This document shows, in pieces, positions 2,110-31,759 of a stretch of DNA of 40,183 nucleotides. Origin of the DNA: Chiloscyllium plagiosum (lineage: Eukaryota); the NCBI RefSeq assembly GCF_004010195.1, contig NC_057751.1, positions 19,107,387 through 19,147,569 of the forward strand, written 5' to 3'. Each line of letters starts with the position of its first letter. Positions within the stretch are counted from its first letter, which is position 1. A program made the translations under genes and the position numbers. A model generated the notes under the pieces. It was given only the letters and a program-made list of their open reading frames with translations, made no database searches and had not been told where the DNA came from.

Positions 2110-4696
2110 GATGATCTGGAGGTGCCAGTGTTGGACTGGGGTGTACAAAGTTAAAAACCACACAATGCCAGATTATAGTCCAACAGGTTTATTTGGAAGC
2201 ACTAGCGTTCAGAGCGCTGCTCCTTCAGGTGGTTGTGAAGTATCAGATCGGTGGTGCCAGAATTTATAGTTTACAGTGTGATGTAACTGAAATTATATAT
2301 TGAAAAAGACCTGGATTGTTTTAAGTCTTTCCTCTTTTAGAATGACCATGTTGGTTTCAGTTCTTTCTTATGTAAATCCCAGAACCTTTTTAAAAGTTAC
2401 ATTCTCAAGATGAGATTAGATTAGATTACTTACAGTGTGGAAACAGGCCCTTCGGCCCAACAAGTCCACACCGCCCCGCCAAAGCACAACCCACCCATAC
2501 CCCTACATTTACCCCTTACCTAACACTACGGGCAATTTAGCATGGCCAATTCACCTGACCTGCACATCTCTGGACTGTGGGAGGAAACCGGAGCACCCGG
2601 AGGAAACCCACGCAGACACGGGGAGAACGTGCGAAGTCCACACAGTCAGTCACCTGAGGCGGGAATTGAACCTGGGTCTCTGACGCTGTGAGGCAGCAGT
2701 GCCACCCACTGTGCCACCGTGCTGCCCACAAATTGTACCAGCCTCCACCACTTCTGGCAGTTCATTCCATACGTGCACCAGGGCCTTGGGCTTTAACAAT
2801 AGGTGCCATGTTGTCTCAGATAATGCATTGAAGGTGTGAGGTGCCCTGTGTGAGGCTGTCTGTGCCCCATGTTCAGACTGATTCTATTTCTAAAAAAGGG
2901 ATTTACAGAATCTTACATGGGTTCATGCAGATTTTGAGCAAAATAAAATGTAATTTTGCAAGTACAAGTTCACCCCACAAACTTATGTGAGAGTGTGGGT
3001 GAGTGTAAAGGGTATAAGTGTGAGCATATGCAAGAGAGCTTGTGTATGAGTCCGTAGGATATGTGTGGTGTAGTGAGGTCACCTGTAGTGTGACATGAAC
3101 CCAAGGTGTTGGTTGAGGCCGTCCCCTATCAGCCACTTTGCATTGTTGCCTGTCCCGAAGTCCACTTTGGATAGTCACCTGAAAGTCCGAGGTTGAATGT
3201 CCTGGATCGCTGAAGTGTTCTTGGAGTAGGAGGGAACACTCCTGTCTGTTGATTGTTGTGCGGTGCCCATTTCATCCCTTGCCGTAGCCTCTGCTCGGTT
3301 TCACCAATGTCTCATTCTTGGACACATGCATATCTATCAAGGATGGGCACCTCAGCACATCACTCTACCGCAAACCCACGGATAACCTCACGATGCTACA
3401 CTTCTCCAGCTTCCACCCGAAACACGTTAAAACAGCCATCCCCGACACGTACACAGGATCTATTCAGATGAGGAGGAACATGACCGGCATTTGGAAGTAC
3501 TCAAGGGTGCTCTCATAAGAACGGCCCACGATGCTCAACTCATCGACCACCAGTTCTGTCGTGCCACAGTGAGAAACTGTAATGACCTCCTCAGGAGACC
3601 GACACGAGCTGCAACTGACAGGGTACCCTTCCCAGGAGCTGAAAAACTATACCATATTCTTCGCAGCCTGCAACACATCATCAATGAGGATGAGCACCTC
3701 ACCAAGACCTTCCCCACATCTCTGTTTCGTGCCTTTAAACAACCAGCAAACCTCAAACAGATCATTGTTTGCAGCAAACTGCCGGGCTTTCAGGACAACA
3801 CCATACAACCCTGTCACAGCAGACACTGCAAGAAATGTCAGAGCGTTGACATGGATACCACCATTACACGTGAGACACCACCCACCATGGACACAGCATA
3901 TACTCATGTGACTCTGCCAATGTTGTCTATCTCATAAGCTGCAGGCAAGGATGCCCTGAAGCATGGTATGTTGGTGAGACCAAATTGAGGCTATGGCAAC
4001 AGATGAATGGACAGCGCACAACAATCAACAAACAGGAGTGTTCCCTCCCAGTCGGAACACTTCAGCGGTCCGGGACATTTGACCTCAGACCTTCAGGTGA
4101 CCATACTCCAAGGTGGACTTCGGGATAGGCAATGATGCAAAGTGGCCAAGCAGAGGCTGATAACCAAGTTTGGTACTCACAGGGATGGCCTCAACTGGGA
4201 TCTTGGGTTCATGTGACAACAGGTGACCCCACTGCAACACACACACACCTAGCAGAATCACATTTTATTTTGCTCAAAAACTGCTTGAATCCATGTAAGA
4301 TTCTATTTCTATTTTTTAGAAATAGAATCAGTCTGAACACTGGGATACAGACAGCCTCACACAGGGCACCTTACACCTTCAATGCATTATTTGAGCTGAC
4401 ATGGCACCTATTATTGAAATTCACTTGAGAGTGTAACTTTAAAAAACAAGTTCTGGGATTTATGTATGAAAGAGCTGAAACCAACATGGTCACTCTAAAA
4501 GATGAGAGATTTAACAAACACTCCAGGTCTTTTTCCATATATAATTTAAGTTGCATCACACTGTAAACTTCTGCGATAAATTCTGTGTCTTACATTCTCA
4601 TACTCCACAACCACCTGATGAAGGAACAGCGCTCCTAAAGCTAGTGCTTCCAAATAAACCTGTTGGACTATAACCTGGTGTTGTGTGATTTTTAGT
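2110..4696. mobile_element. Degenerate Penelope-like retroelement, inverted two-arm insertion with 12-bp TSD
   Basis: + arm encodes RT C-terminal FLDTCISIKDGHLSTSLYRKPTD..LHFSSFHPKH and GIY-YIG-type VVYLISC..CPEAWYVGETK..RL..QMNG, with frameshifts. 2110-~3310 is an inverted copy of the 3' part. TTCAGTAGATTC flanks it at 2098-2109 and 4697-4708. Confidence 0.85.
2414..2728 (-). mobile_element. tRNA-derived V-SINE (HE1-like)
   Basis: tRNA-like head (TGGCACAGTGG..GGTTCAATTCC), V-domain TTCTCCCCGTGTCTGCGTGGGTTTCCTCCGGGTGCTCCGGTTTCCTCCCACAGTCC, CR1-like tail with (TAATC)n; inserted in the PLE. Confidence 0.85.
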
Positions 4697-4796
4697 TTCA
4701 GTAGATTCATACATGAAGAATGGACACTTAAGGTAAAGTGCTGCCATTCTTGGTGGAAGTTTGCTCCTCCTCCTTCCTGTAGGGCACTTTGTGAAA

Positions 4797-4980
4797 CGAG
4801 TTTTGAGAAGATTTGTAGCTCAGGTTGAGGTTTTGGATGTAGGTTTGCTCGCTGAGCAGGAAGGTTCATTTCTAGACGTTTCGTTATCCTACTAGGTAAC
4901 ATCTTCAGTGGGCCTCAGGTGAAGCAATGCTGAAAATTCCTGCTTTTTATTTGTATGCTTGGGTTTCTTTGTGAAACCCA
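4797..4980 (-). mobile_element. Short PLE 3'-end insert with hammerhead motif (4872-4912)
   Basis: Minus strand reads CTGAAGA-T-GTTACCTAGTAGGATAAC-GAAA-CG-TC. Same family as 20391-20613; imperfect TSD gcactt(t)(g)gtgaa. Confidence 0.7.
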
Positions 4981-5199
4981 GCACTTTTGGTGAAGTGCTT
5001 GGTTGCCTGAACTGACTATGTGACTTGGTGTCCAATTTTGTTTGATCATGCCTGGTGAGTCATTTTTACCATTTTAACAATGTTGCATAAATCCAAGTTA
5101 TTGTTGTTAGGGCAAAAAGTGCAATGTAACGTGTAACAATAGGGCAGGACAGCAGCAGGTTGATGCTAATTTTGAGGACCATAAGACATCAGATACTGA

Positions 5200-6450
5200 G
5201 GGTCATAGAATGTAAGAAAAAGAAGCGGAAGTAGGCCAAATGGCACTTAAATCTGCTTTACTATTCGGTAAGATCCCAACTAACTACCTGTCTCTACTCC
5301 TTTCGTGTCAGCTTCCCGTATCGTTCAATTGCCTGAGAAAAACAAAATTTGTCTACCCCAGCTGGAGTATTGAATTTTACAGAATCCCTACAGTGTGGAA
5401 ACAGGCCCTTCAGCTCCAGAAGTCCACACCAACCCTCCGAAGAGTATCCCACACGAACCCATTCCTCTACATTTACCCCTGACTAATGCACCCAAGCTAC
5501 ACTATGGGCAATGTAACAAGGCCAATTCACCTAACCTGCACATCTTTGGAATGTGGGAGGAAACCCATGGAGACACGGGGAGAACGGGCAAACTCCACAC
5601 AGACAGATAGTCACCTGAAGCTAGAATCAAACCCGGGTGTCTGGCACTGTGAGGCAGCAGTGCTAACCACTCTGCTGCCCCACAACATACCCAACAATTG
5701 AGCATCTGCAATACTCTGCAGCATTGATTCACAGCCTTTTGAAAGAAGAAACGTCTTCTCGTCCCAGATTAAACGATTAATATCATATTGAGAGAGTGTG
5801 GCCCATTTCCCCAACTAACAGAAACAACCACTTTGTGTCAACTCTGTCAACTCTCTTCAGAATCTCCATGTTTCAGAGCTATTGCCTTTCATTCTTCTAA
5901 ACTCTAGACAGTATAGATCCAATTTACTCAGCCTCTTATCGGAAAATTCTGTCATCTCATTGTGCTTGGCAATGGAGATAAGACTGAGGTGTTGCACTAA
6001 GCAAACTGTCCCTGTGTAGAGCCTGTGTGGACAAGACTGATTGGCCTCCTTCTGTGCTGTGACTATTCTAAGATATTCCAGATGTGGTCTCCCCAAAGCC
6101 CAAAACTATTGTAGCAAGGTGACTTTATTCTTGTATTTGCCTGCTAATTTTTTTGTATTCCTTTGTACATGCACACATATCTCTGAACACTAACATTTAA
6201 AATCACTTTTTTTTTTGAAAATCTTCTATTCTGAAGACTAAAGTAAACAAAATTACACTTACACCTACATTAACCTCTATCTAACCACCCCACCCATTGC
6301 CCAATTACTTATCCTGTCCATAATGATTGTGTCTTCACAGCTTGCCTCCTGACCTAGCTTTATGCCATAACAGAACTTAGTTGTATTACTGTCTGTCTCA
6401 TTGTCTAAGCTATTAATGTAAATTGTAAATAGCTGAGGCTGCATCACTGA
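5200..6450 (-). mobile_element. Old CR1-clade LINE fragment (interrupted by V-SINE)
   Basis: GRPHLEY, RLSKLDLYCLEFRRMKG and LFTIYINSLD..TKF...KLG remnants. Confidence 0.65.
5381..5680 (-). mobile_element. V-SINE (HE1-like)
   Basis: Same head, V-domain and tail as 2414-2728. Confidence 0.8.
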
Positions 6451-7629: not shown

Positions 7630-8350
7630 NNNNNNNNNNNNNNNNNNNNNNNNNNNNNNNNNNNNNNNNNNNNNNNNNNNNNNNNNNNNNNNNNNNNNNN
7701 NNNNNNNNNNNNNNNNNNNNNNNNNNNNNNNNNNNNNNNNNNNNNNNNNNNNNNNNNNNNNNNNNNNNNNNNNNNNNNNNNNNNNNNNNNNNNNNNNNNN
7801 NNNNNNNNNNNNNNNNNNNNNNNNNNNNNNNNNNNNNNNNNNNNNNNNNNNNNNNNNNNNNNNNNNNNNNNNNNNNNNNNNNNNNNNNNNNNNNNNNNNN
7901 NNNNNNNNNNNNNNNNNNNNNNNNNNNNNNNNNNNNNNNNNNNNNNNNNNNNNNNNNNNNNNNNNNNNNNNNNNNNNNNNNNNNNNNNNNNNNNNNNNNN
8001 NNNNNNNNNNNNNNNNNNNNNNNNNNNNNNNNNNNNNNNNNNNNNNNNNNNNNNNNNNNNNNNNNNNNNNNNNNNNNNNNNNNNNNNNNNNNNNNNNNNN
8101 NNNNNNNNNNNNNNNNNNNNNNNNNNNNNNNNNNNNNNNNNNNNNNNNNNNNNNNNNNNNNNNNNNNNNNNNNNNNNNNNNNNNNNNNNNNNNNNNNNNN
8201 NNNNNNNNNNNNNNNNNNNNNNNNNNNNNNNNNNNNNNNNNNNNNNNNNNNNNNNNNNNNNNNNNNNNNNNNNNNNNNNNNNNNNNNNNNNNNNNNNNNN
8301 NNNNNNNNNNNNNNNNNNNNNNNNNNNNNNNNNNNNNNNNNNNNNNNNNN
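7630..8350. other. Assembly gap
   Basis: N run. Confidence 0.99.
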
Positions 8351-8833
8351 GCCGTTTATCACTACTTTTGTTTCCTATCAGCCAACCAACTTTCAATGCA
8401 AGTTAGTACTTTGCCCCCAATACCATGCGCCCTAATTTTGCTCACTAACCTCCTATGTGGGACTTTATCAAAAGCTTTCTGAATGTCCAGGTACACTACA
8501 TCTACTGGATCTCCCTCGTCCATCTTCAGAGTTACATCCTCAAAAAATTCCAGAAGATTAGTCAAGCATGATTTCCCCTTCATAAATCCATGCTGACTCT
8601 GACCTATCCTGTTACTACTATCCAGATGTGTAGTAATTTCATCCTTTATAATAGACTCCGGTATCTTTCCCACCACTGAGGTCAGACTAACTGGTCTATA
8701 ATTTCCTGTTTTCTCTCTCCCACCTTTCTTAAAAAGTGGTATAACATTAGCCACCCTCCAATCCGCAGGAACTGATCCCGAATCTATCGAACTCTGGAAA
8801 ATAATCACCAACGCATCCACGATTTCTCAAGCC
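8351..8833 (-). mobile_element. CR1 LINE reverse transcriptase fragment
   Basis: WRVANVIPLFKKG..NYRPVSLTS..QHGF..SCLTNL..YLDIQKAFDKVPH. Confidence 0.9.
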
Positions 8834-9079
8834 AAAATAGTTTGCATCTCCTTTACACCACACATTCCTGCTCTGCTTTATATTATCTGCAAGCTTGGAA
8901 ATATTATATTTGGTTGCTTAGTCCATACTTTTCAAATTTGATATTATTTTTCTAATCAACCCATTCGGTGATGTTATTACACACTTCTGGAGCAGGTGGA
9001 ACTTAAACCTGGGCTTCCCCAGCCCAGTTTCAAGACATCCGGCACTTCCTTCTCTGTAATATGGACATTTTTCAAGATG

Positions 9080-9650
9080 TCACCATCTAATTCCCTACAT
9101 TCTAGGTCTTCCATGTCCTTTTCCACACTTGCAGAATTCCACTAATTCTACTGACCGCTGCCAACTTGAAAGTGCCTGTTTGATCCCCATTTTCTGCTTC
9201 CTGTCTGTTAACCAATCCTCTATTCATGCATATATATTAACTCAATCTCCACGAGCCCTTATCTTGCATGTTATTCAAGTATGCTCTAACTGCTGGCTCT
9301 CTGTTATCTACCCTATAACATACAACTTCAAAAGACTAATAAATTTTCAAATATGACTTCTCTTTCACAAAACCCTGTTGATCCAACTGGTCATTTTACA
9401 ATTTTCCAAATGTGTTAAGACTTCTTCAGTAATAGATTCCAACACTTTACTAATGACTAACTTCAGGATAATTGGCCAGTTACTTCCTTTTTCTCTCTCT
9501 CCTTTCTCAAAGAGCAGTTATATTTGCCAACTTCTGATCTGCTGGAAACATTTCTAGAAACTAGTTTGTTTTGGAAAATCTTAACTAAACATCCATTTTC
9601 TCTATAGTCACCTCATTCAGATCCTAGGATGTCCACTGATACCACTGAAT
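9080..9650 (-). mobile_element. Old CR1 RT remnant
   Basis: Degenerate similarity to the 8351-8833 RT region (tgacttctctttcacaaaaccctgttga; taattggccagttacttccttttctctctctcc). Confidence 0.5.
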
Positions 9651-10562
9651 TTTTTTAGATTTCAAATGAAGGGCAGGAGAAATTTACTTGTGCATACATT
9701 TGTGAGATGAATTAATTTCCAGTCATAAAAGCAAAAAACTGCAAGTGCTGGAAATCTGAATTTTTAAAAAATTCTGAAGAGACTCCATGTTTGGTGGCAT
9801 CTGGGGAGAGATGTTTTGAATCTGGTATGACTGTTTGAATTGTTTTGAAGAAGTCTTGTTGCATTAATTTCCCAGGTTAGTGACTGAGGCAGAAAGAATG
9901 TCAATACTTCAGATTGGACTTGATAGGTGTATGAAGGGAAAAAAGGTTGAGAGATATAGAAATGTTTTCTCTTTGTGTTTGGTTCATGTGCTGGGTTAAT
10001 GTTGATCCAAACTGGTGGAATCAAATGAAACTTTTGTGCATTTCTGCATGAAATATGGAAAAATATAAAACAATGTTAGGTACAGTGATTGTTTTACTCA
10101 TCGTGGCAATTAGTTCCATGAATGTTTTTCATACTTAGAGTGTGATGTCACCCCCCCAAAGTGCAGCAACTGTTTTCCTCTGAGTACCTGGAATATGATG
10201 TAAACAAGACAATTTGAACACACAACATAATAATCAAGGAAATGGATGTTAATCTTTCATGTAAGAAAAACTGAAGCATTTTAATCTAAAGGTTGTTGTT
10301 TAATGGGTAATCAAAAGATTATTTAATTCATCATGAGCAGAATATGATTTTTAATACAATAGGTAATAAGCTTTTCAGAAGTGGTCTTTCATGGTTTTGG
10401 TTGACCTATTGAGAGGACTTTATCAAATATTAACACTAAAGCAAGATGTCCAGTTTGTACCTTAGTATGCCAGTAGGTAGGGACTGCTATGTGAGAAGTG
10501 AACGTTTCGAGGAGCAAAACATGAACGTTAAATTATGCTGAATTGTATTTTAACCCCCTCCT

Positions 10563-10571
10563 AAAAAAAAA
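10563..10571 (-). terminator. RNA polymerase III terminator (T9) of tRNA-Ser
   Basis: A9 on + (T9 on -) starting 9 nt downstream of the tRNA 3' end. Confidence 0.85.
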
Positions 10572-10579
10572 CACGACAT

Positions 10580-10661
10580 CGTCACGAACAGGATTCGAAC
10601 CTGTGCGGGGAGACCCCATTGGATTTCGAGTCCAACGCCTTAACCACTCGGCCACCGTGAC
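10580..10661 (-). tRNA. tRNA-Ser (anticodon CGA)
   Basis: Reverse complement reads GTCACGGTGGCCGAGTGGTTAAGGCGTTGGACTCGAAATCCAATGGGGTCTCCCCGCACAGGTTCGAATCCTGTTCGTGACG. 82 nt; GTCACGG/TCGTGAC acceptor stem, TTGGA/TCCAA anticodon stem with CT-CGA-AA loop, long variable arm, A and B boxes, G discriminator. Confidence 0.97.
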
Positions 10662-11067
10662 TCATAGTGTCGCAGTTGAAAGGGGTTTAAATAGAAGATT
10701 GGAATAAACTCGCAGTTATTTAAATGGGACACCGTTATTCTACTGTTTTAACACGCTTCATTCTAAAATTGCGTATTGTAAAACGTTCTCACGCGATCAT
10801 CTATTCGGGGAAATCCGGAATACCTGACGCAAAGTTAATTTAGCGTTGCAGATCTCCGCCTGGACTGTTTTAAATCCGCCTCGAGAGGGGTGGCCTGAAT
10901 CAATACATACGTCCATTGCATTAGTATGCAGCCCATTCTAAAATTTACTATGGAACGGACAAGATTTAATCATATAAATAGAAATGATACATACTTTTTG
11001 TGCTCACAGGATCCATATTCTGCTCTTTATTTATTTATCGGGTCTTCCCACCCCTGTCTCCTCCCAG

Positions 11068-11093
11068 TTTGGCGGTTCCAGGGTTGGCGGGAA
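11068..11093 (+). promoter_or_regulatory. E2F-type motifs in putative TIMELESS promoter
   Basis: TTGGCGGGAA at 11084-11093 (consensus E2F site) and TTTGGCGG at 11068-11075; such sites are typical of S-phase/replication genes. Confidence 0.65.
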
Positions 11094-11094
11094 T

Positions 11095-11176
11095 TCTTGG
11101 AGCGCGGGTTATTCAGATTTTAGGAGGAAAATCGAGTTGAAACATTTTAGTCGGAAATTAGCTTGCAACACCTAAG
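11095..11176 (+). other. TIMELESS: Probable non-coding first exon of TIMELESS (start approximate)
   Basis: Strong donor AAG|gtgagc at 11176/11177, just downstream of an E2F motif in a CpG-enriched unique stretch. The first coding exon has an acceptor upstream of its ATG, so an upstream exon is required. Confidence 0.65.
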
Positions 11177-11825
11177 GTGAGCTTGTTTCTTTTATCCTCC
11201 CTTCAAATCGTTCTCCCCCAAATTAAATCTCTTCAACTAAAAACAGAATGATTTTGCCACATGAGGGGGTCATTCTGCTTGATCCTGCCTGTACCGGTAA
11301 ATTCAGGATTGTGATTTGTCACTTTTGGGTTGCAAACTTATTCAAATTAATTCCTTTTTGGATCCGAAATTCTTTTAGCCAGTTTGATCATTTGTTCTTC
11401 AGCTATCTCCCCCCGCCTTTCCTGCCTTCCCATTTTTTTCCTTTTGAACCCATACCTACCTCATTTTACTGGATTTTGTATATTTTAAATGTTTGCGTAA
11501 TTTGAAAACAAATCTGGAATATGATTCTCAATAATATATTGACATCTTTAAATTGTGGAACATTCAGCCTGTCTGTGGAAATCAGCTGACATTTCTTTCG
11601 TATACTTCAGATGATGAAGGACTGAGGGTTTGGGGAGGTGTCATTTGTGTTGAAAAACACTTCTCCATTTTAAGTAAAGCTTCCAAGCATCACTGCGCCA
11701 TATTTATGTTTTTCGACGTTACCTACTCTCTTTCACGTATAGTTGAAGATTTAGACTGGCTTTCTTCACATTTTGGAGTAGACTCAGCAACCATTTACAA
11801 GACCCACAAAAATGTAGGTCTCTAC

Positions 11826-13083
11826 AGTCATAGAGATGTACAGCACGGAAACAGACGCTTCGGTCCAACCCGTCCATGCCAACCAGATATCCCAACCCAA
11901 TCTCGTCCCACCTGCCCATATCCCACCAGCACCCGGCCCATATCCCTCCAAACCCTTCCGATTCATATACCCATCCAAATGCCTCCACCACATCCTCTGG
12001 CAGCTCATTCCATACACATACCACCCTGTGTGAAAAAGTTGCCCCTTAGGTCTGTTTTATATCTTTCCCCTCTCACCCTAAACCTATGCCTCTCTAGTTC
12101 TGGACTCCCCCACCCCAGGGAAAAGACTTTGCCTATTTACCCTATCCATGCCCCTCATAATTTTATAAACCTCTATAAGGTCACCCATCAGCATCCGACG
12201 CTCCAGGGAAAACAGACCCAGCCTGTTCAGCCTCTCCCTATAGCTCAAATCTTCCAACCCTGGCAACATCCTTGTAAATCTTTTCTGAACCCTTTCAAGT
12301 TTCACAACATCTTTCTGATNNNNNNNNNNNNNNNNNNNNNNNNNNNNNNNNNNNNNNNNNNNNNNNNNNNNNNNNNNNNNNNNNNNNNNNNNNNNNNNNN
12401 NNNNNNNNNNNNNNNNNNNNNNNNNNNNNNNNNNNNNNNNNNNNNNNNNNNNNNNNNNNNNNNNNNNNNNNNNNNNNNNNNNNNNNNNNNNNNNNNNNNN
12501 NNNNNNNNNNNNNNNNNNNNNNNNNNNNNNNNNNNNNNNNNNNNNNNNNNNNNNNNNNNNNNNNNNNNNNNNNNNNNNNNNNNNNNNNNNNNNNNNNNNN
12601 NNNNNNNNNNNNNNNNNNNNNNNNNNNNNNNNNNNNNNNNNNNNNNNNNNNNNNNNNNNNNNNNNNNNNNNNNNNNNNNNNNNNNNNNNNNNNNNNNNNN
12701 NNNNNNNNNNNNNNNNNNNNNNNNNNNNNNNNNNNNNNNNNNNNNNNNCAAGTTTGTGAGACATGATTTCCCACACACAAAGCCATGTTGACTATCCCTA
12801 ATCAGTCCTTGCCTTTCCAAATACATGTACATCCTGTCCCTCAGGATTCCCTCCAACAACTTGCCCACCACCGACGTCGGGCTCACCGGTCTATAGTTCC
12901 CTGGCTTGTCTTTACCGCCCTTCTTAAACAGTGGTACCACGTTTGCCAACCTCCAGTCTTCCGGCACCTCACTTGTGACTATCGATGGTACAAATATCTC
13001 AGCAAGAGGCCCAGCAATCACTTCTCTAGCTTCCCACAGAGTTCTCAGGTACACCTGATCAGGTCCTGGGGATTTATCCACCT
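11826..13083 (-). mobile_element. CR1 LINE fragment spanning gap
   Basis: KSPGPDQV..NYRPVSPTSVVGKLLE..QHGF on one side of the gap; LERVQKRFTR and the 3' tail on the other. Confidence 0.88.
12320..12748. other. Assembly gap
   Basis: N run. Confidence 0.99.
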
Positions 13084-13229
13084 TTACCTAATGTCATTAG
13101 GAAAAATGTCATTGTTTCCCCTGTTTTGTATAGGAAGTGTCGTCGCTGATGTCAGTAACACATGTTGTTAGTATCACTCTCAAACATGCAGCTTTTCCAT
13201 TTTAAATCTTGTGCGCTTCTCAATTTTAC

Positions 13230-13560: not shown

Positions 13561-13754
13561 AGTAGATAACGATACAACTTTTCAGGTGTCACCAAAGTTT
13601 AGTACAGTTTGCAATGCCAACTGTCCTCAACATACACAAGGTGTGTTGCGAATAATAGAGAGACGGAGGATATTCTGTTAAATTAGCTCAGAAATTAACG
13701 TGAATAATTGTGTTGCCTGGTATAGCACTATATTTTTCCAGGTTCAATTCTGAT

Positions 13755-14079
13755 GATGTCAAGGTGCTGGTGTTGCACTGGGGTGGACCAAATCAGAAGT
13801 CACATGACACCAGGTTATAGTCCAAGATGTTTATTTGAAATCACAAGCTTTCTGAGCACTGCTCATTCATCAAGTGAAGTGGAGGGAAATGCACAGGCGT
13901 CGAACTTATAGGTAGAGAGATTATTCCAAGATAATTCTAGGTAATTACCTAGAATCATCTTGCAATGATCTCTCTGCCTATAAATTCTGTGCCTTCACCT
14001 GACAAAAGAGCAGTGCTCAGAAAGCTTGTGATTTCAAATAAACATCTTGGACTATAACCTGGTGTCACGTAACTTCTGA
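13755..14079. mobile_element. Palindromic PLE-derived insert with two degenerate hammerheads
   Basis: Inverted arms centred on GGTAATTACC (~13945); TCAC-CTGACAA-AA-GAGCAGTGCTC-A-GAAA-GC-TT-GTGA at 13995-14031; TSD CAATTCTGAT at 13745-13754 and 14080-14089. Confidence 0.8.
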
Positions 14080-14340
14080 CAATTCTGATCTAATTTTAGA
14101 AAATTGGGGTGTTGCATTTGGCCTCAGTGCCAGGGGAAACTGGGTCTTTGGTGCAGTAACAATAAGTAAAATATCGAAGGTATTACCAATTGATCACAAG
14201 TTGTATTACTCAGTGGAAGGAGAATGGACGTGATTGAAATTCTAGCCATCCTTGTGACCTCCTCCTTCGGGGATGGCAAACGTATTTTTAGCTCCACAAG
14301 AAGAGATGAAATTTATTTTCCTCTGAGGGTTGGGAGTCGT

Positions 14341-14639: not shown

Positions 14640-14818
14640 GAGTGCCCCTCCGTAGCTAGCAGTGGAGGCAGAATCATTGAATACTTTTTTCAAAGAGAGG
14701 TAGGTTAGATTCTTGATTATCAAGGGAGTTAAAAGGGTTGACAGGAAAGTGGAGTTAAGGACACAATCAGATCAGCCATAATCCTATTGAATGGCAGAGC
14801 AGGCTTGAAGGGCCAAAT
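14640..14818 (+). mobile_element. CR1 3' tail fragment
   Basis: agcagtggaggcag..gatagattcttg..gatcagccat..gaatggcagagcaggcttgaagggccaaat. Confidence 0.6.
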
Positions 14819-15023
14819 AGCAGAAGTGGGTACTGCAGATGCTGGGAATTAGAGTCAAGATTAGAGTGGTGCTGGAAAAGCACAGCAGGTCAGAAGCATC
14901 CGAGGAGCAGGAAAATCGACGTTTCGGGTAGGAAAAACAAAGGGCTTTTGCCCAAAGCGCCGATTTTCCTGCTCCTTGGATGCTGCCTGACATGCTGTGC
15001 TTTTCCAGCACCACTCTAATCTC
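14819..15023. mobile_element. Palindromic PLE-derived insert, junction inside hammerhead
   Basis: Inverted arms ~14859-14927 and ~14950-15022; TSD GAAGGGCCAAAT at 14807-14818 and 15024-15035; inserted into a CR1 3' tail. Confidence 0.8.
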
Positions 15024-15630
15024 GAAGGGCCAAATGGCCTAGTCCATATTCATATGTTCATAACACCCCAAGATGTCTACCAGTCCCTCTTTTCAGGGGT
15101 GCAGTATGTGACTTTTGCCAATCCTACCATTCTCAAGAAACTGGTGGGACCCTTGTGCCAGCCTCCTGTTCTGGCAGGACTGTAGTAAGAGGTTAATGGT
15201 GATGGTGTCATATTCTGTTTTGCAGAGCAGCATGATTAAGACCAGGAATTCATAGTGACCATTTTGCTGTTAGCTTAAAACCAGACAGCAAATGCAAGCA
15301 GCACTCGGTAGGTCTGGTTGCATCTTAGACAGAGATGGAGTTAATGTTTTAGGTTGATGACCCTTGAAATGCGCAATGGTAGGAGTGTGGGAACAGCACA
15401 CTTTTTGTCTTCTTTGCACCGATGTATCCATTTGATTTCTCTCTTCCACCTTTTATAACAACACCTCATTTGTAATATACTTTTGAGCAATGATAAAATG
15501 ATTCTTCCACACTGTCCCGTTTACAGCTGGAGCAATTTCACCCTTGTTTTTTCTCTCTCTTCCCCCTTGCATTTCTTTTGTTCCAGGTTGCTTCTGTCCT
15601 ATGTCGTTACTACTTTGAAGAGTGCACTGT

Positions 15631-15878: not shown

Positions 15879-16830
15879 GTCATAGAGATGTACAGCACGG
15901 AAACAGACCCTTTAGTCCAACCTGTCCATGCTGACCCAGATATCCCAACCTAATCTAGTCCCACCTGCCACCACCCGGCCCATATTCCTCTAAACCCTTT
16001 CTATTCCTATACCCATCCGGATACTTTTTAAATGTTGTAATTGTACCAGCCTCCACCACTTCCTCTAACAGCTCATTCCACACATGCACCACCCTCTGCG
16101 TGAAAAAGTTGCCCCTTAGGTCTCTTTTATATCTTTCCCCTCTCACCTTAAACCTATGCCTTCTAGTTCTGGACTCCCCCAACGAAGGGAAAAGACCTTG
16201 TCTGTGTACCATATCCGTACCCTTCATGATTTTCTCAACCTCTATAAGGTCACCCCTCAGCCTCTGATGCTCCAGGGAAAACAGCCCCAGCCTATTCAAC
16301 CTCTCCCTATAGCTCAAATCCTCCAACCCTGGCAACATCCTTGTACATCTTTTCTGAACCCTTTCAGGTTTCACAACATCCTTCTGATAGGAAGGAGACC
16401 AGAACTGCAGTATTCTAAACATGGCCTAACCAATGTCCTGTACAGCTGCAACATGACCTCCCAACTTCTATACTCAGTACACTGACCAATAAAGGAAAGC
16501 ATACCAAACGCCTTCTTCACTATCCTATCTACCTGGGACTCTACTTTCAAGGAGCTATGAAACTGCACTCCAAGGTCTCTTTGTTCAGCAACAGTCTCCA
16601 GGACCTTACCATTAAGTGTATAAGTCCTGCTAAGATTTGCTTTCCTAAAATGCAACACCTCACACTTATCTAAATTAAACTCCATCTGCTACTTCTCAGC
16701 CCATTGGCCCAGCTGATCAAGATCCTGTTGTAATCTGAGATAGCCTTCTTCACTGTCCACTACACCTCCAATTTTGGTGTCATCTGCAAACTTACTAACT
16801 ATGCCTCCTATGTTCGCATCCAAACCACTT
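15879..16830 (-). mobile_element. CR1 LINE 3' fragment
   Basis: SKFADDTK, MEFNLDKCEVLHF, DLGVQ, LGLFSLE and the 3' tail. Confidence 0.88.
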
Positions 16831-17460: not shown

Positions 17461-18102
17461 AAGGAATTAAATCAGACAGACCACTTGGTATATGCCAAGG
17501 CAATGGAAGTAATGGCACACAGCCTTGTCATTCTTGCAAAGTCTCTTCTTCCTGTAAAAAAAAAAGCCGCCATTCACATTTGCTTTCTGCAAGTTAAACT
17601 TGCTTTCATCAAAACAGCGAAATAGAAGTTTCATTTCAGCAAAATTACCTCAATTTTTAAAGAGAACAAGCTATATACAACTCTTCCATTGCTTTCTAGC
17701 CAATCAAACCATCTCTAGAAAGGAAGTCTAGACTGCCAGCTGCAGTTTTAGATTTTTGGGCTCCAACTTAAAACTCCATCTGGGGCATTGTTAAACGTGT
17801 ATCTCTTGGTTGTTTTGTAGTTTAGTTTTACGAGTTGAACAATTTCTTTATCCTTTTCTATTCTATCTCTCCATGTATGTTTGTAATTGTGTTTCTGTTG
17901 CAAATCAATCCCCAATGTCTAAAAGTATATGAAATAAGCCCTACGTTGGTTTAATTTTCCTACAGTAATGTGCTCCCTTACAAAAGTCATAGTTCACCAA
18001 TAGAGGGAGTGGGGAAATACACCCTACTGTTTAAAGACAGGAGAAAAATTAAATTGCAGTCTGCTTGTTGTTATGAGTGTAGGTGATAGCAATACTGGAT
18101 AA

Positions 18103-18455
18103 GATGTGGAGATGCTGGTGTTGAACTGGGGTGGACAAGGTCAGAGGTCACATGGCACCAAGTTATAGTCCAACAGGTTTATTTGAAATCACAAGGTTTT
18201 GGAGCACTACTCCTTTGTCAGGTGAAATGTGACAGTAGTGCTCCAAAACCTTGTGATTTTAAATAAACCTGTTGGACTATAACTTGGTGTCGTGTGACTT
18301 CTGACCTTGTCCACCCCAGTTCAACACCAGCATCTCCACATCTTATCCAGTATTGCTATCACCTACACTCATAACAACAAGCAGACTGCAATTTAATTGC
18401 CTCGCTCTGAAAGCTTGTGATTTCAAATAAACCTGTTGGAATATAACCTGGTGTC
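18103..18455. mobile_element. PLE-derived insert rearranged by an inverted duplication
   Basis: Same family as 13755-14079. There are three arm copies; 18234-18398 is the reverse complement of 18047-18211. Confidence 0.75.
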
Positions 18456-19729
18456 TGGACAAGTCAGATCCCAGAGTAAAACCTGACTTGATAGGCCATA
18501 GGTTTTACTTTTGCAATTTGGTTACGATGGTGGTCAGTCACTGAACATATTCACAGGAGGCTGCCAATGTGCAAAATAATGTTATTCGCATTAATAGTAA
18601 ATAGAACAAAGTTATATTAGACATTTCAGAAAAATGTTGTAATAAACTGCAAAAAGAAAGATTCATCCCTTTTCCCAGTGTTGTCCTTTACAGGTATACA
18701 ACCCCAGTGAAGTTTCACCATTATCTTCACTATTTTCTAACTCAATTGACGTGGAAACAAACATTTCCTTTCATTGACTTTCTGTGCATTCACCAGCTAT
18801 GATTCTCTTCATTTCTCCCTAAGACATACAGGCTAAGTCACAGAGTTTTCTCTGACTACCATAAAGCTGCAAAACAGCACATCTGATATGGATCGTTTCC
18901 TCTGAACTGACGCTGCTTTTTGCCTCTGATCTCTTTTTGTAGGTCATAAAAGCTCAATGTTGTAGACACTTCAGTTATCTCACCAGGTAGCTGGTCTAGT
19001 CGTTTAGCTTAAGTCTCATGATTTCTTTAAATGCTGTTTTGATCCACTGCTTAAAAAAAGTTAGTCTTTTTTTTTAAATGTCACCTTCACAGCACAGAGA
19101 ATCAAAAACCCATTTACCTCTACTTTGGAATCCAAGTTCTCAACAAATAATATGATGTAAACCTCCACGTGTAGACAGGTGGTGAGAACAGGGAGAATGA
19201 TTTGTTTTGAAACTCATAATCTGTCTGTAACAATGCTACTCAAGGCCTTACAGAGCAAGAGATCTGCAGGTTGGGTTCATGGTTTGTGTTCAGTGAACCA
19301 ACTCCAGCTACTGTTTGCTTTGGAATATTAGAGACGTGAGAAGGAAGCCAGTGAAAGCTGCTGCTACTGGTAGAGTGTTGGGGCACAGAAAGAGGCATTT
19401 GACTCCTCTTGTGCTAGCATTCTGAAAGATCGCTCCACTAGTCCTGGTCTTTCCCCATGGCCTGACAATTTTTTTTGTTTTGCAGTTGAAGAATTATTTC
19501 TGGAAGGTGCACATGTGGCTGTTGGACAGGAATAGAGTCAAGTTTGGTTGTGATGGCCTCATGGTAGCATATCCAGCCAGAACCTATTCTCTGCTTGTGC
19601 CTGAAAAATGGCCACTTGAGTACATGGTCAAGCAAAAGCCAATAACTTCAGGAAAAGAAGTGGAGATGATTAGAAGTGACATTTGATTTTAAAAGCAGAT
19701 GCTGACTAGAATTCATTCTTGTTTTTCAG

Positions 19730-19883
19730 AGGGTGTCAAAGACCTAATCAGGTACTTAAGACACGAAGATGAGACAAGAGACATTCGGCAGCAACTGGGA
19801 GCTGCACAGATTCTACAAAAAGATTTACTGCCCATTATCACACAGTATCCTCAGGAGAAGGTGCTGTATGAAGCAGTTATCAG
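19730..19883 (+). CDS. TIMELESS: TIMELESS coding exon 2
   Basis: (E)[50 protein letters not shown](R); tttcag acceptor, AG|gtatca donor; phase 1 to 2. Confidence 0.97.
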
Positions 19884-20340: not shown

Positions 20341-20428
20341 TCTACTTGCTATAATCAAGTAAATAAGACAACTAAATATCCGTTTAGCTTTTGGATGTAA
20401 GTTTGCTCACTGAGCTGGAAAATTTGTT

Positions 20429-20470
20429 CTCAGATGTTTCGTCACCATACTAGGTGACATCATCAGTGAG
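20429..20470 (-). ncRNA. Minimal type I hammerhead ribozyme motif
   Basis: CTCA-CTGATGA-T-GTCACC-TAGTAT-GGTGAC-GAAA-CA-TC-TGAG: intact core, perfect 6-bp stem II, 4-bp stem I, vestigial stem III. Confidence 0.75.
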
Positions 20471-20496
20471 TCTCCAGTGAAGCACTTCACCAGCGA

Positions 20497-20538
20497 CTCA
20501 TTGATGATGTTACCTAGAATGGTGACGAAACGTCTGAG
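20497..20538 (+). ncRNA. Minimal hammerhead ribozyme motif (C3U variant)
   Basis: CTCA-TTGATGA-T-GTTACC-TAGAAT-GGTGAC-GAAA-CG-TC-TGAG. Confidence 0.6.
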
Positions 20539-21700
20539 AACAAACCTTCCAGCCCAGCGAGCAAACTTACATCCAGAACCTTAACCTGAGCTACAAATCA
20601 TCTCAAAACTCACTATCCATTTGGCTTGTCTAAAGAGACTCTCTTTGGTTGGCTCCTTGTGATAAATATTTCAAAGTGGAGCTTGAGAAATCCAAAGAAA
20701 TACAGAAAATTGCTTAAAGGAGAAGGAGACTCGAGATGAAAGGGAGGATGCTGAGATGGGAGAGCTAATGCAGTTTCAAATCTAGCTTTGGAATAATATG
20801 GTGTTTAGCCTGTGAACAATGCTTTAACATGGTGAAGGGAGAGGGACGTGCATGGGAAGGTTGGCTTTCTAATCAAAACCAGGCAGCAAACAAAAATTGA
20901 CTGTATGTAACTCTGTATCAATTAGCTGGCTTTCCCATGCTGATAGAGGGGATATGCTGGACGTCATTGCTATTTGAATCTTCCATTCTTGTTACTTTCT
21001 TTCAAAGTTGGAAGATTTGTTCTTGAGACAGGGAGTGTTTGCTGATGGGATGCTGCTAGGCTGAGCAGTCATTATACTTTTTTATTTGAGTCTATCATGA
21101 AGGCTGCTCTGAAAGCTAATTCTGGTAAGGGACAAAAGAGCCAATGTAGAGCATGTTGAAACAACATTAGGGACACTACACTTTATCGAACTTCGATTCT
21201 TGGGTGCTTGCTCATCTTTACTAAGACAGCTGCAGAAGATTTTGAAGGCCTCGGATAGGGCTTCCTAGGATAGGTCAGTACCCTAAGTAGAGTTGTGAGC
21301 TGAAACTTTCAGTGTACAAGCTCCGAGGCAGCAGTGATTGATGCCCTGCTTTTACGTTTCCATTCTAAATCCCCACCTCATCGACCAAACAGTCGTAATA
21401 AATTTTCAAACCGCTGACTGGGAGGGTTCTGGGTAATGGGTAATTCAAGATGGAGGAAGGGAAAAATTTCTGGCTGTAAGAGCTGCTCCTTTTTTTTGAG
21501 GTATTTTAGGTGTTGGAGGTGATTTCCTCAAATTCCAGGAGCAGCAATTACTGTTTTATATGCTGTTGCATTGTTTTGGAACTTCGGGGGAAAAAAAGTC
21601 AAAACAACAGCAGGTTTAAAAGGGAGAAGAGCAGACAAAGGAAGCACATGGTGAGGACAGTGCAGGAGAGAGAGAGAGAACCTGCACAGTTACCGCCTTT

Positions 21701-25996: not shown

Positions 25997-26490
25997 CATA
26001 GAGATGTACAGCATGAAAACAGATCCTTTGGTCCAACTCGTCCATGCCGACCTATATCCTAACCTAATCTAGTCCGATTTGCCAGAATTTGGCCCATATT
26101 CCTCTAAACCCTTCTTACTCCTTTACCCATCCAGATGCCTTTTAAATGCTGTAATTATACCAGCCTCTACCACATCCTCTGGCAACTCATTCCATACACG
26201 CACTACCCTCTGCGTGAAAAAGTTGCCCCTTGGGTCTCTTTTATATCTTTCCCCCCTCACCCTAAACCTATGCCCTCTGGTTCTGGACTCCCCCACCCAG
26301 GGAAAAGACTTTGTCTATTTATCCTATCCATGCCCCTCATGATTTTATAAACCTCTATAAGGTCATCCCTCAGCCTCCGATGCTCCAGGGAAAACAGTCC
26401 CAGCCTATTCAGCCTCTCCCTATAGTCCAAACCCTCCAACCCTGGCAACATCCTTGTAAATCTTTTCTGAGCTCTTTCAAGTTTCACAAT
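25997..26490 (-). mobile_element. CR1 LINE 3' fragment
   Basis: KLERAQKRFTRMLPGLEGLDYRERLNRLGLFSLE. Confidence 0.85.
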
Positions 26491-26581
26491 ATCATTCAAT
26501 TCTTGTTACGCATTGAAAACTTGTCCTTGCTTTCTGTCTACTTGGATCTAAAAAGGCTGGTAAATTAGGAAATGTTAAGTG

Positions 26582-27764: not shown

Positions 27765-29400
27765 CAAGGGAAATTGTGTCTCACAGACTTGATTGAGGAC
27801 ATGACCAAGATGGTAGATGAGGGCAGAGTGGTAGATGGTGTCTGTCTGGACTTTAGCAAGGCCTTTGACAAGCTTCCACATGTTAGACTAGTTAATAAAA
27901 TTAAATCACATGGGATCCTAGGAGAGCTTGCCAGTTGGTTACAAAATTGGCTTGACAGTAGGAGACACGGGGTGGTGGTGGAGGGTTGTTTTTCGGACTG
28001 TGGGCTTGTGACTAGTGGTATTCTGCTGGGATCGGTGCTGAGTCCTCTGTTTTTGTCATTTATAGAAATGATTTGGATGAGAATATAGGAAGGTGGTTAA
28101 TAAGTTTGTGGATGACACCAAAATTGGTGGTTTAGTGGACAGTAAAGAAGGTCATCTAAGTGTACAACGGGATCTTGATCCAGTGGGCCAAGGAGTGGCC
28201 AATGGAGTTTAAGTCTGATAAGTGCGAGGTTTTGCTTTTTGATAAGACGAACAAGAGTAGGACTTGCACAGTTAATGGTAGGGCCCTGAGGAGTGTTCTC
28301 AAACAGAGAGACCTACGGGTTCAGGTACATAGTGTGATGGGCCAGACCAGACTCCCTCAAAATATATTAAGAAGGTAGCCTAGACCCTAAGGTTTTCTTG
28401 TTTTAAAGATAAATGTCAGGCGCTGTGATCCAGATCAATTCGATTGGTCAAACTACTTGACGTTAAGCAAATCAAGACTGTAATCGAGAGAGGGGAAAAT
28501 AGCTTCCACATCTTCAAGACCCCCAACAGCAACTGCTGCTGAAAACTAAAAATCCCTGGTTCTGTGGATGGAAGCTTGACAATGCCCATTCGGGCTGCTT
28601 CTAGTGTTCCAGCCTTCAGGAAAAACAGCCAATGGCTTCACAAGTTGTTTATCTTCTCATAGACTTCTTGGCACCTGCTCCCCATAACACGTTTTTTAAA
28701 AAGGCCAGGGCAAAATAATCTCGTAAAGCCACAGCATCGTCTCAATATTTTCTTGAAAATGGTGTTACAGGCAGGCAGGGTGATGAAGAAGGTGTTTGGC
28801 ATGCTTGCCTTCATTGGTCAAAGCATTGAGTTTGGGGGTTAGGAAACTATGTTGCAGTTATACAGGATGTTGATGAGGCCACTTTTGGTGTACTGCATAC
28901 AGTCTGGTCACCCACCTATTGGGAGGATATTGTTAAATTGGAGAGGGTGCAGAAAGGATTTATCAGGATGTTTTCAGGACTGGAGGGTTTGAGTTACAGG
29001 GAGAGGCTAGGACGTTTTGCCTGGAGCGTGGGAGATTGAGGGGCGACCTTGCAGAGATTTATAAAATCGTGAGGGGCACGGAAAACGTGATTGCAAAGGC
29101 CTTTCACCTCGGGTTGGGGAGTTTAAAACTACAGGGCATAATTTTAACGTAAGAGAGAAAGATTTAAAAGGAACCTGAGGGGCAACATTCACACACACAG
29201 ACACACACCAGAGGAAGTGGTATATGCAGGTGGAGTTCCAGCAGTTAAAAGACATTTGGACAGATAGATGGATAGGAAAGGTTGAGAGAGATATAGGCCA
29301 AATGCAGGCAAATGGGGCTACTTTAGTTTTGGGAAACATGATCGGCATGGATGAGTTGGGCTGATGGGTCTGTTTCCGTGCTGTATGACTTGATGACTCT
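27765..29400 (+). mobile_element. CR1 LINE 3' fragment interrupted by LTR-like insert
   Basis: LDFSKAFDKLPH, GSVLSPL, KFVDDTK, MEFKSDKCEVL; resumes after 28744 and runs to the ..gtgctgtatgact tail. Confidence 0.85.
28333..28744. mobile_element. Probable solo LTR
   Basis: 412-bp insert cleanly interrupting the CR1; TG...CA ends (tgtgatg / cgtctca) with imperfect 4-bp TSD ATAG/ATAT. Confidence 0.6.
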
Positions 29401-29409
29401 AACGTGAAC

Positions 29410-29512: not shown

Positions 29513-29703
29513 TTGTCAGAACTACTTTGTTGCTTGATGAAAATGGCTGAAATTAATTTTTAAAAACAGAACATGTGGGCTACTAAACAAATTAAACGTC
29601 GCAACATCACATCTCAATTATATTTTACTACTTGAGTGATCAATCTTGAGTGTAATTTTGTAAACATTTTCTGTTGTTTGTGCCTGTTTTTGTTTCTACA
29701 AAG

Positions 29704-30592: not shown

Positions 30593-30726
30593 AAACCTGA
30601 CCAACTTGCCATGACAGGGCAAGCAAAAACTACGGAGCAGAAAGAGAAGGATTCCAGAGAGCTTGAAATCTTAAAGCAGAGAGAGTTAGCCACAAAGAAG
30701 CAAAGAACCTTTGAAAGAGGAACCAG
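30593..30726 (+). CDS. TIMELESS: TIMELESS coding exon 7
   Basis: KPDQLAMTGQAKTTEQKEKDSRELEILKQRELATKKQRTFERGT(R); ctgtag acceptor, AG|gtgaga donor. Confidence 0.95.
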
Positions 30727-30889
30727 GTGAGACTCCACATGGGTGAAATATTACCTAGGTTTTGTGTTGCAGAAGGCATTTCACACAAACCAGAGTGCCA
30801 TGCTTGAATTGAAAGAGTATAAGTAATAGAGAGGAACCAACATGTTAATTTCATGTGTTTTCCCTGCAACCCCTTCAAGTGCTAGCACC

Positions 30890-31190
30890 ATAGAAATTAG
30901 GTAGAGAGCTGGAGTGGTGCGGGGAGGGAAATCTGGAATTAGTGGCCTAGACAACTGAAGGAATGGCCCTCAGTGGTGAAGCAACTATAATTGGGTGTGC
31001 AAATAGGCCAGAGTCAAGGGGTGCACATATACTGCGGGGCTGGAAGAGATTACAGAAGTAGAGAGGAGCAAGGACATGGATTTGAACACATAGGCAAGAA
31101 CTTTAAAATCAAGGTGTTGCTTGACCAGCAGCCACTGTAGATCAGAAAGCATAGGGTGATAGGGCAATGGTACTTGCTCTGAGTTAATAT
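30890..31190 (-). mobile_element. L2-clade LINE remnant
   Basis: PMLSDLQWLLVKQHLDFKVLAYVFK resembles the L2 P.L..LHWLP...RI.FK motif. Confidence 0.6.
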
Positions 31191-31209
31191 ATGGATAGCA
31201 GAATCAGTT

Positions 31210-31450
31210 ATGAATGTAAATATAAAAAGTCTGGAATTAAGAGTCTAATGATAACCATGAAGCCATTATCGATTTGTCAGAGAAAAATACATCTGGTTTA
31301 CCTTTAGGGATGGAAACTGCCATCCTTACCTGGTCCGGCCTTAATGTGACTCCAGACCTACAGCAACTGCCCTCTGAGCAATTAGGGATGGGCAATAAAT
31401 GTTTGCCTAGCCAACATTGCCCACATCCCATGGACTAGTTTTTAAAAAAA
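31210..31450 (+). mobile_element. Second SINE family, 5'-truncated
   Basis: Matches the body of 25538-25865 and ends in an A tail. Confidence 0.65.
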
Positions 31451-31540
31451 CGAACTATCTTTTTCTTAAAGTTTCCTGTTGGAAGGATATTTTACTAAGC
31501 TGACAAAGTATTGACATAAGTAAGACTAAAAAATGTTAGC

Positions 31541-31759
31541 TGAAAATGTGTTGCTGGAAAAGCGCAGCAAGTCAGGCAGCATCCCAGGAACAGGAGAATC
31601 GACGTTTCGGGCATAAGCTCTTCTTCAGGACATTCCTGAAGAAGGGTTTATGCCCGAAACGTCGATTCCCCTGTTCCTGGGATGCTGCCTGACTTGCTGC
31701 GCTTTTCCAGCAACACATTTTCAGCTCTGATCTCCAGCATCTGCAGTCCTTACTTTCTC
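31541..31759. mobile_element. Near-perfect palindromic PLE-derived insert with back-to-back hammerheads
   Basis: 31538-31630 is the reverse complement of 31634-31726 with very few mismatches; perfect 15-bp TSD CTAAAAAATGTTAGC at 31526-31540 and 31760-31774. Confidence 0.85.
31632..31667 (+). ncRNA. Minimal hammerhead ribozyme motif
   Basis: ATTC-CTGAAGA-A-GGGT-TTAT-GCCC-GAAA-CG-TC-GATT: intact core with palindromic ACGT stem III; predicted cleavage after C31663; stem I is weak. Confidence 0.7.

What the first reader, a model, noticed from the sequence alone, without database searches (positions are those of the whole stretch)
2110..31759. Stereotyped palindromic PLE insertions: TSD + full arm + inverted arm missing ~34-39 nt
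Seen: five independent inserts (2110-4696, 13755-14079, 14819-15023, 20391-20613, 31541-31759) from at least three different sequence families share one architecture. Each sits between a 10-15 bp TSD and consists of two inverted copies of the element 3' region. One arm reaches the element end; the other stops about 37, 37, 39, 35 and 34 nt short (hand counts). In some, the short arm overlaps the TSD by a few bases (e.g. AGC at 31538-31540). Known: PLEs can carry inverted pseudo-LTRs, and L1 twin priming gives non-overlapping inversions rather than palindromes. Inference: both target strands prime cDNA on the same 3' region (two RNAs, or one RNA reused), the second at a fixed offset that may reflect an RT footprint or an RNA structure. 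I do not know of this offset being described.
Basis: partly seen in the sequence, partly recalled or inferred. Interest (0 to 1): 0.8.

Follow-up and report, generated by a model that had tools for sequence, protein, structure and literature searches.

The report
One-tailed Penelope retroelement palindromes, shark
The five lopsided mirror-image insertions are real, but their 33-40-base overhang is the long-described "tail" of Penelope-like jumping genes, likely made when both cut DNA strands start copying the element's RNA at two points about 35 bases apart, so this is an ordinary example of a known pattern.

Summary
Observation confirmed. All five inserts are head-to-head pairs of a Penelope-like element (PLE) 3' region between target-site duplications (12, 10, 12, 15 bp exact; 14 bp with 2 mismatches). 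One arm stops 33-40 nt short. One contig from another organism shows the empty site of insert E. Reads pile up at B's short end and E's full end, and E's centre is not a master junction. Insert A holds a decayed RT-thumb/GIY-YIG ORF of Neptune/Nematis type; the arms carry hammerhead cores. The offset is not new: it is the 30-40 bp PLE 'tail' (PMC3846280, PMC8557442). An anole PLE was shown in vitro to nick and extend both strands and to start at two RNA sites flanking the tail (PMC11167929). Detail added here: in A, C and D neither arm can be a copy of the other, which argues against fold-back. B's and E's arms share rare variants, which favours one source. Two further inverted inserts (F, G) deviate. 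The scan noted this pattern before, on other DNA (19 notes, at least 7 genomes). New member of a known kind; interest low.

The parts
2098..2109 (.). Insert A, left TSD copy (12 bp; right copy 4697-4708)
   Evidence: exact repeat
2110..3310 (-). Insert A full-end arm (element antisense on +); tail about 2110-2149; split by a later insertion at about 2403-2791; its 5' end lies in the GIY-YIG coding part
3306..4696 (+). Insert A short-end arm; decayed ORF 3306-4213 (end of RT, thumb, C-x4-C-x2-C linker, GIY-YIG), then 3' region with a hammerhead-like core; about 2 nt shared with the other arm at the centre
4697..4708 (.). Insert A, right TSD copy
13745..13754 (.). Insert B, left TSD copy (10 bp; right copy 14080-14089)
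13755..13944 (-). Insert B full-end arm; tail 13755-13792; centre is a perfect 10-bp palindrome at 13940-13949
13945..14079 (+). Insert B short-end arm, 38 nt short
14807..14818 (.). Insert C, left TSD copy (12 bp; right copy 15024-15035)
14819..14928 (-). Insert C full-end arm; tail about 14819-14856; followed by 11 nt of filler (14929-14939)
14940..15023 (+). Insert C short-end arm, 36-38 nt short, 2 nt shared with the TSD, 11 nt longer at its 5' end than the full arm
20377..20390 (.). Insert D, left TSD copy (14 bp, 2 mismatches to the right copy 20614-20627)
20391..20484 (-). Insert D short-end arm, 35-37 nt short, with a strict hammerhead core; 2 nt longer at its 5' end than the full arm
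20485..20613 (+). Insert D full-end arm; tail 20577-20613
31526..31540 (.). Insert E, left TSD copy (15 bp; right copy 31760-31774); single copy in the empty site of organism C
31541..31630 (-). Insert E short-end arm, 33-36 nt short, 3 nt shared with the TSD; strict hammerhead core
31631..31759 (+). Insert E full-end arm; tail 31724-31759; the family end runs about 2 nt into the TSD (31761); strict hammerhead core at 31636
18047..18456 (.).
8..200 (.). Insert G: inverted arms 8-64 and 76-130, right arm goes on; offset 70 nt or more; no TSD found
4798..4966 (-). Single-arm D-family insertion with full end and exact 11-bp TSD (4787-4797 / 4967-4977): a non-palindromic comparison copy
38165..38300 (-). 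Single-arm C/E-family copy with full end and hammerhead core; no TSD found within 1500 nt

Best explanation
These are 5'-truncated, head-to-head insertions of endonuclease-bearing Penelope-like retroelements, and each was likely made by two target-primed cDNA syntheses, one from each strand of a staggered cut, one starting at the far RNA start site (giving the tail) and the other at a site about 35 nt further in. Steps. (1) The GIY-YIG endonuclease nicks both strands 10-15 bp apart, leaving 3' overhangs: the TSDs are shown, the nick geometry is inferred. (2) Each 3'-OH primes on the element's RNA, often helped by 2-3 nt of pairing: the shared bases are shown, their role is inferred. (3) The two start sites bracket the tail: shown in vitro for a Poseidon element, inferred here for Neptune-type and non-coding families. 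(4) Both cDNAs stop early, and their 3' ends are joined bluntly, through 2-4 nt of homology, or with filler: the centres are shown, the joining is inferred. (5) Both arms probably come from one source element, possibly one RNA read by two RT subunits in tandem: inferred from shared rare variants.
For: Exact flush TSDs and offsets of 33-40 nt in 5 inserts from three sequence groups. Empty site with one TSD copy in one contig of organism C. Neither arm contains the other in A (short arm about 660 nt longer at 5', full arm 40 nt longer at 3'), C (+11 nt) or D (+2 nt), so both were copied from a longer template. At E's centre 28,299 reads leave the reference against 1,162 aligned at 31631, so the junction is particular to this copy. 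Sharp random-flank pile-up at E's full end: 32,216 reads at 31760-31762, agreement 0.33. Pile-up at B's short end: 1,845 reads at 13793, agreement 0.38, depth 8,974 at 13792 rising to 11,490 at 13796. Both E arms share letters that 92-98% of reads lack, and both B arms share two letters that 92% of reads and copy F lack. Published: both strands cut and extended, two start sites flanking the tail, predicted dimer (PMC11167929).
Against: Two of 7 inverted inserts deviate: F 51 nt, G 70 or more. The read tools show only the top rows (6 of 188; 24 of 1,454). E's short end was not among the rows shown, and its depth step (368 at 31537 to 26,258 at 31551) is confounded by subfamily differences. The larger peaks at 13800 and 13807 are mixed with reads of a related subfamily. 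In vitro the start-site choice did not differ between strands (PMC11167929), so pairing of one long and one short start is not shown. B, D and E have centres symmetric to within 0-3 nt, which independent truncation would not predict. Shared variants could come from a rare source lineage or from later gene conversion between the arms. A's arms are only 83-87% alike.
Confidence: 0.7

Rival explanations
1. Fold-back or self-priming: one cDNA is made from the far start, then it (or an antisense RNA, as proposed in PMC3846280) turns back and copies itself, stops about 35 nt short of the target junction and jumps to the other target end.
For: Centres of B, D and E are symmetric to within 0-3 nt. The arms share rare variants. 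F holds 57 nt of flank copied in inverse, so fold-back DNA synthesis can occur at these elements. Self-priming is the published proposal for junction palindromes (PMC3846280).
Against: In A, C and D the short-end arm has 5' sequence that the full arm lacks (about 660, 11 and 2 nt), which a copy of the full arm cannot have. C has 11 nt of filler at the centre. The short end coincides with an RT start site in vitro for another PLE.
Confidence: 0.15
2. Two separate RNAs, each starting at either site at random; the one-tailed form is only the commonest class and the one the reader picked.
For: No difference in start site between strands in vitro. The tail is called 'optional' and found 'at either end'. 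A's arms differ by 13-17%.
Against: No two-tailed palindrome among the 7 inverted inserts found in the window. Rare variants are shared by both arms of B and of E. Centres are nearly symmetric in B, D and E.
Confidence: 0.1
3. The palindrome-plus-tail unit pre-exists in non-autonomous master elements (MITE-like) and is copied whole.
For: The short units look alike in size (205-325 bp), and the C/E family is very abundant (127,966 of 12,895,792 reads laid).
Against: C and E are of one family but have different centres; so do A, B and F. At E's centre most reads go on into other sequence. Opposite-strand joints are spread over many places with at most 43 reads each among the 15 of 133 shown (positions partly follow subfamily divergence). 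Single-arm copies exist, one with a TSD.
Confidence: 0.04
4. Assembly artefact or chance.
For: Palindromes can arise from chimeric reads; F's 98% inverted copy of flank was not checked against reads.
Against: Exact TSDs (null 1 of 3000 at 10 bp or more), arms that have diverged 3-17% from each other, and an empty site in another organism.
Confidence: 0.01

Closest known systems
Insertion unit of EN+ Penelope-like elements, e.g. Pen2a_Av of Adineta vaga (PMC3846280; passages read) and the general scheme in PMC8557442 Fig. 2 (passages and legend read)
   Same: Head-to-head inverted 5'-truncated copy, TSD of about 8-10 bp, and a 30-40 bp tail at only one end (31 bp in Pen2a_Av); palindromes at the inverted junction; hammerhead motif in the pLTR.
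   Different: Shark families; TSDs 10-15 bp; four of five inserts are stumps of 205-325 bp without coding sequence; no direct tandem pLTR is present in these copies.
PAc, Poseidon element of Anolis carolinensis (PMC11167929; abstract and main text read, parts 1-2 of 4; supplements not read)
   Same: Both strands nicked and extended; RT starts inside the RNA at two sites that bracket the tail; A+C-rich start region; hammerhead core upstream.
   Different: Insert A has the C-x4-C-x2-C linker that Penelope/Poseidon lack, so it is Neptune/Nematis-like. The paper reports no homology between primer and RNA, while here 2-3 nt are shared at 3-4 of 5 short ends. Its main text does not discuss inverted insertions.
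L1 twin priming
   Same: Two target strands prime cDNA on the element RNA and produce an inversion inside a TSD.
   Different: L1 gives non-overlapping inverted segments, starts on a poly(A) tail and has a variable second site. Here the arms overlap, there is no poly(A), and the second site is fixed.

Membership tests
EN+ Penelope-like elements (PLE) | Single ORF with RT followed by a C-terminal GIY-YIG endonuclease | tested here: met
   Insert A only: 3306-4213 aligns (tblastn E 3e-99) to shark proteins, one with a YIDD RT motif (P0004, read by eye); GIY-YIG and CCHH residues read by eye. Pfam gave only a weak GIY-YIG hit on a relative (P0006, E 0.15, below cut-off) and none on the window pieces. 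B is linked to A by 77% DNA identity; C, D and E have no coding sequence.
EN+ Penelope-like elements (PLE) | Minimal hammerhead ribozyme core in the pLTR / 3' region | tested here: met
   5 strict matches in the window, all in these families (E both arms, D short arm, two single copies), against a mean of 0.5 and a maximum of 3 in 50 mononucleotide shuffles. Relaxed matches in both arms of A and B; none in C, whose centre cuts the core. Rfam at gathering threshold found no hammerhead. Cleavage not testable.
EN+ Penelope-like elements (PLE) | Inverted 5'-truncated copy, head to head, with a 30-40 bp tail on one side | tested here: met
   5 of 7 inverted inserts, offsets 33-40 nt.
EN+ Penelope-like elements (PLE) | Target-site duplication; no poly(A) tail | tested here: met
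   TSDs of 10-15 bp; empty site for E; no A-run at the full ends.
EN+ Penelope-like elements (PLE) | Partial-tandem pLTR-ORF-pLTR structure of full-length copies | not testable with these tools
   No full-length copy in the window and no genome held.
EN+ Penelope-like elements (PLE) | RT phylogeny with PLE/telomerase RTs | not tested
   Only the last RT motifs remain in A; no tree was built.
Neptune/Nematis clades | CX2-5CxxC linker upstream of GIY-YIG (PMC8557442) | tested here: met
   C-x4-C-x2-C in the ORF piece 3431-3934 and in P0001, P0004, P0006. It does not separate Neptune from Nematis.
Penelope/Poseidon clade | CX2-5CxxC linker absent | tested here: not met
   The linker is present in A. 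The clade of C, D and E cannot be told.
MITE / DNA transposon | Terminal inverted repeats flush at both ends and a fixed internal junction shared by copies | tested here: not met
   Ends differ by 33-40 nt; centres differ between copies of one family.

The most novel reading that the evidence does not exclude
PLE inverted ends are made by one RNA read by two RT subunits in tandem. One subunit is primed by one target strand at the near site and runs ahead; the other is primed by the opposite strand at the far site, about 35 nt behind (the spacing of the dimer), and displaces the first cDNA. This one step would explain the one-sided tail, overlapping arms, shared rare variants, near-symmetric centres, and the short-end arm reaching as far 5' or further in 4 of 5 inserts (A, B, C, D; E is 3 nt the other way). 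I did not find it stated in print in searches or in the main text of PMC11167929; earlier scan notes voice similar ideas.
Probability: 0.3. Interest if true: 0.5.

Novelty: new member of a known kind. Interest (0 to 1): 0.2.

Why it matters
As a pattern it matters little: the one-sided 30-40 bp tail on inverted PLE insertions is in print, and so is a biochemical cause. The value is as test material. How PLEs build inverted ends is still open (self-priming was proposed in 2013; two-strand, two-site priming was seen in vitro in 2024 but not tied to inversions in that main text). This shark genome holds very many young copies, about 1% of reads for one family. A census could decide between fold-back, two RNAs and one RNA with two RTs, and could extend the two-site rule from a Poseidon element to Neptune-type ones.

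Tried and rejected
Rfam at gathering threshold found only a tRNA, no hammerhead family; I used a motif scan. Pfam did not name the window's ORF pieces (a sub-threshold Zn_Tnp_IS91 hit covers the cysteine linker). Folding the five tail regions gave no structure beyond shuffles, so an RNA hairpin as ruler is not supported, though these are decayed copies. My first label 'Poseidon' was dropped after the linker check. No TSD was found for G or for the single copy at 38165. In one search organism B gave no piece spanning the site and the raw-read run had almost no depth on the unique flanks, so the empty site rests on one contig of depth 5. In one search the full end of B was displaced to 13765 by a more abundant related subfamily, so no clean full-to-short ratio could be read. 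Literature searches gave nothing beyond the papers cited; the 2005 and 2006 reviews that first defined the tail were not seen and are cited through PMC3846280 and PMC8557442. The supplements of PMC11167929 (Figs S1, S2) were not read and may bear on primer homology and on inverted copies.
Full report
Setting. The window is from a shark-like vertebrate: the closest named proteins to the ORF in insert A come from Chiloscyllium, Hemiscyllium and Mustelus. It covers part of a TIMELESS gene (exon 19732-19878, Pfam PF04821, E 6e-11; 1 of 3 exon pieces hit in that call and 0 of 2). No genome is held.

1. Observation. Self-comparison finds the five inverted pairs at the stated coordinates. TSDs are exact and flush for A (12 bp), B (10), C (12) and E (15); D has a 14-bp TSD with 2 mismatches. 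Among 3000 random position pairs, 1 gave a flush exact repeat of 10 bp or more and none of 12 or more. Offsets between the full and the short end are A 38-40, B 38, C 36-38, D 35-37, E 33-36, the range depending on how bases shared with the TSD are assigned. In run X8 (organism C) one 312-nt contig aligns to 31426-31525 and 31760-31899 without a break in the record, which is the empty site of E with one TSD copy (one contig, depth 5). All pairs point their 3' ends outward. Two more inverted inserts do not fit: F (18047-18456, 51 nt, rearranged) and G (8-~200, 70 nt or more, no TSD found).

2. What they are. A's right arm holds a decayed ORF (3306-4213) that aligns to shark proteins with the end of an RT, a thumb, a C-x4-C-x2-C linker and a GIY-YIG domain (motifs read by eye, Pfam support weak). 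The linker marks Neptune and Nematis and is absent from Penelope/Poseidon (PMC8557442, passages). B shares A's 3' region at 77%; C and E are one group (79-88%); D is a third. All 5 strict hammerhead-core matches in the window fall in these families (shuffle mean 0.5, maximum 3 of 50), and relaxed matches lie in A and B. Minimal hammerheads are a known PLE feature (PMC6155905, passages). Single-arm copies with the full end also occur, one with an exact 11-bp TSD.

Genome-scale view from raw reads. On E, 127,966 of 12,895,792 reads were laid. 32,216 leave at 31760-31762 into unrelated sequence (agreement 0.33): a sharp full end, about 2 nt inside the TSD. At the centre 14,495 plus 13,804 reads leave (agreement 0.51 and 0.77) while 1,162 are aligned at 31631, so E's junction is not a master junction. 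Depth on the left arm climbs from 368 at 31537 to 26,258 at 31551, in line with a short end near 31541, but subfamily differences contribute and the short end was not among the 6 rows shown for this run. On B's full arm, 29,799 of 12,895,792 reads were laid. One of the 6 rows shown (of 188) is at 13793, exactly B's short end: 1,845 reads, agreement 0.38, with a depth step from 8,974 to 11,490 over 4 nt. Larger rows at 13800 and 13807 are mixtures with a related subfamily and cannot be read cleanly. So a genome-wide short-end site is supported for one family and suggested for another; a full histogram was not possible.

3. Mechanism. Neither arm can be a copy of the other in A, C or D: the full arm has the tail, and the short arm has 5' sequence that the full arm lacks (about 660, 11 and 2 nt). 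B's arms end level, and E's full arm is 3 nt longer. This argues for two syntheses from a longer template and against a plain fold-back. The TSD continues the short arm by 2 (C), 2 (D), 3 (E), 0 (B) and a doubtful 2 nt (A), and E's full end by 2 nt, as expected if each target 3' end pairs briefly with the RNA at its start site. Centres vary: about 2 nt shared (A), a perfect 10-bp palindrome (B), 11 nt of filler (C), blunt (D, E), as in end joining. Both arms of E carry letters that 92-94% and 98% of reads lack, and both arms of B carry two letters that 92% of reads and copy F lack. This favours one source, but a rare lineage or later gene conversion could do the same. Best reading (0.7): two-strand, two-site target priming. 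The tandem-RT, single-RNA form is the boldest version (0.3). Rivals: fold-back (0.15), independent RNAs and sites (0.1), pre-made masters (0.04), artefact (0.01). The tails are 50-73% A+C but do not fold better than shuffles, so footprint versus structure is open.

4. Known work. PMC3846280 (passages) describes inverted pLTRs, a 9-bp TSD and 'the characteristic 31-bp extension, or tail' on one of the inverted pLTRs, notes head-to-head arrangement and junction palindromes, and proposes self-priming. PMC8557442 (passages and Fig. [quoted passage not shown] PMC8969392 (passages) lists it in a curation guide. PMC11167929 (abstract and main text; supplements not read) shows that an anole PLE cuts and extends both strands and starts at two RNA sites, with the tail between them; it saw no strand difference in start site and does not discuss inversions in its main text. 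The window's inserts therefore work like, and by the features tested belong to, EN+ PLE insertion units; A is Neptune/Nematis-type, not Poseidon.

5. Novelty. What I did not find in print is an explicit statement that the two start sites are used one per strand within a single insertion. The window supports that but cannot prove it. The scan has reported this pattern many times on other DNA (19 notes in at least 7 genomes; 8 more rows from this genome, 1 of them repeated). These are unchecked AI notes, seen after my first reading, and are not counted as support.

6. Verdict. Real, new members of a known kind; interest 0.2. Novel case probability 0.3, interest 0.5 if true.

Noticed in passing
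window 18047-18456: A sixth inverted insert in which the full arm plus 57 nt of left flank is repeated in inverse at 98% identity, followed by a separate arm ending 51 nt short. It may be fold-back DNA synthesis at or after insertion, or a misassembly. The 13 nt after its end also resemble the element's own opposite strand across the short-end site.
   Followed up: partly
window 20377-20390 and 20614-20627: The two mismatches between D's TSD copies both make the left copy, next to the short arm, more like the element (7 of 9 nt match). It could be a trace of primer-RNA pairing, or chance.
   Followed up: no
window 4787-4977: Single-arm D-family insertion with full end and exact 11-bp TSD, 90 nt right of insert A.
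   Followed up: yes
window 2403-2791: Later insertion splitting A's left arm: a tRNA-SINE-like repeat with many copies in the window, followed by a short piece also found at 1719-1834. The SINE label is recalled, not tested.
   Followed up: no
window 10580-10661 (-): tRNA-Ser(CGA) gene (Rfam 62.5 bits; ARAGORN) upstream of the apparent first TIMELESS coding exon.
   Followed up: no
window 15631-38850: Exons of a TIMELESS gene on the + strand (one exon confirmed by Pfam; the others by recalled sequence). D, E and F lie in its introns; A, B and C lie upstream of the apparent start codon.
   Followed up: partly
window 31631-31660, 14929-14951, 20485-20500, 65-75: The centres of C, D, E and G all lie within about 20 nt of the start of the hammerhead core, so the arms may tend to stop near a fixed RNA 5' end.
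   Followed up: no
window 26007-26493 and 28926-29385; 8362-8826, 12302-13087, 15955-16760: Several decayed LINE-like RT fragments (CR1-type by recall), and two assembly gaps at 7630-8350 and 12320-12748.
   Followed up: no
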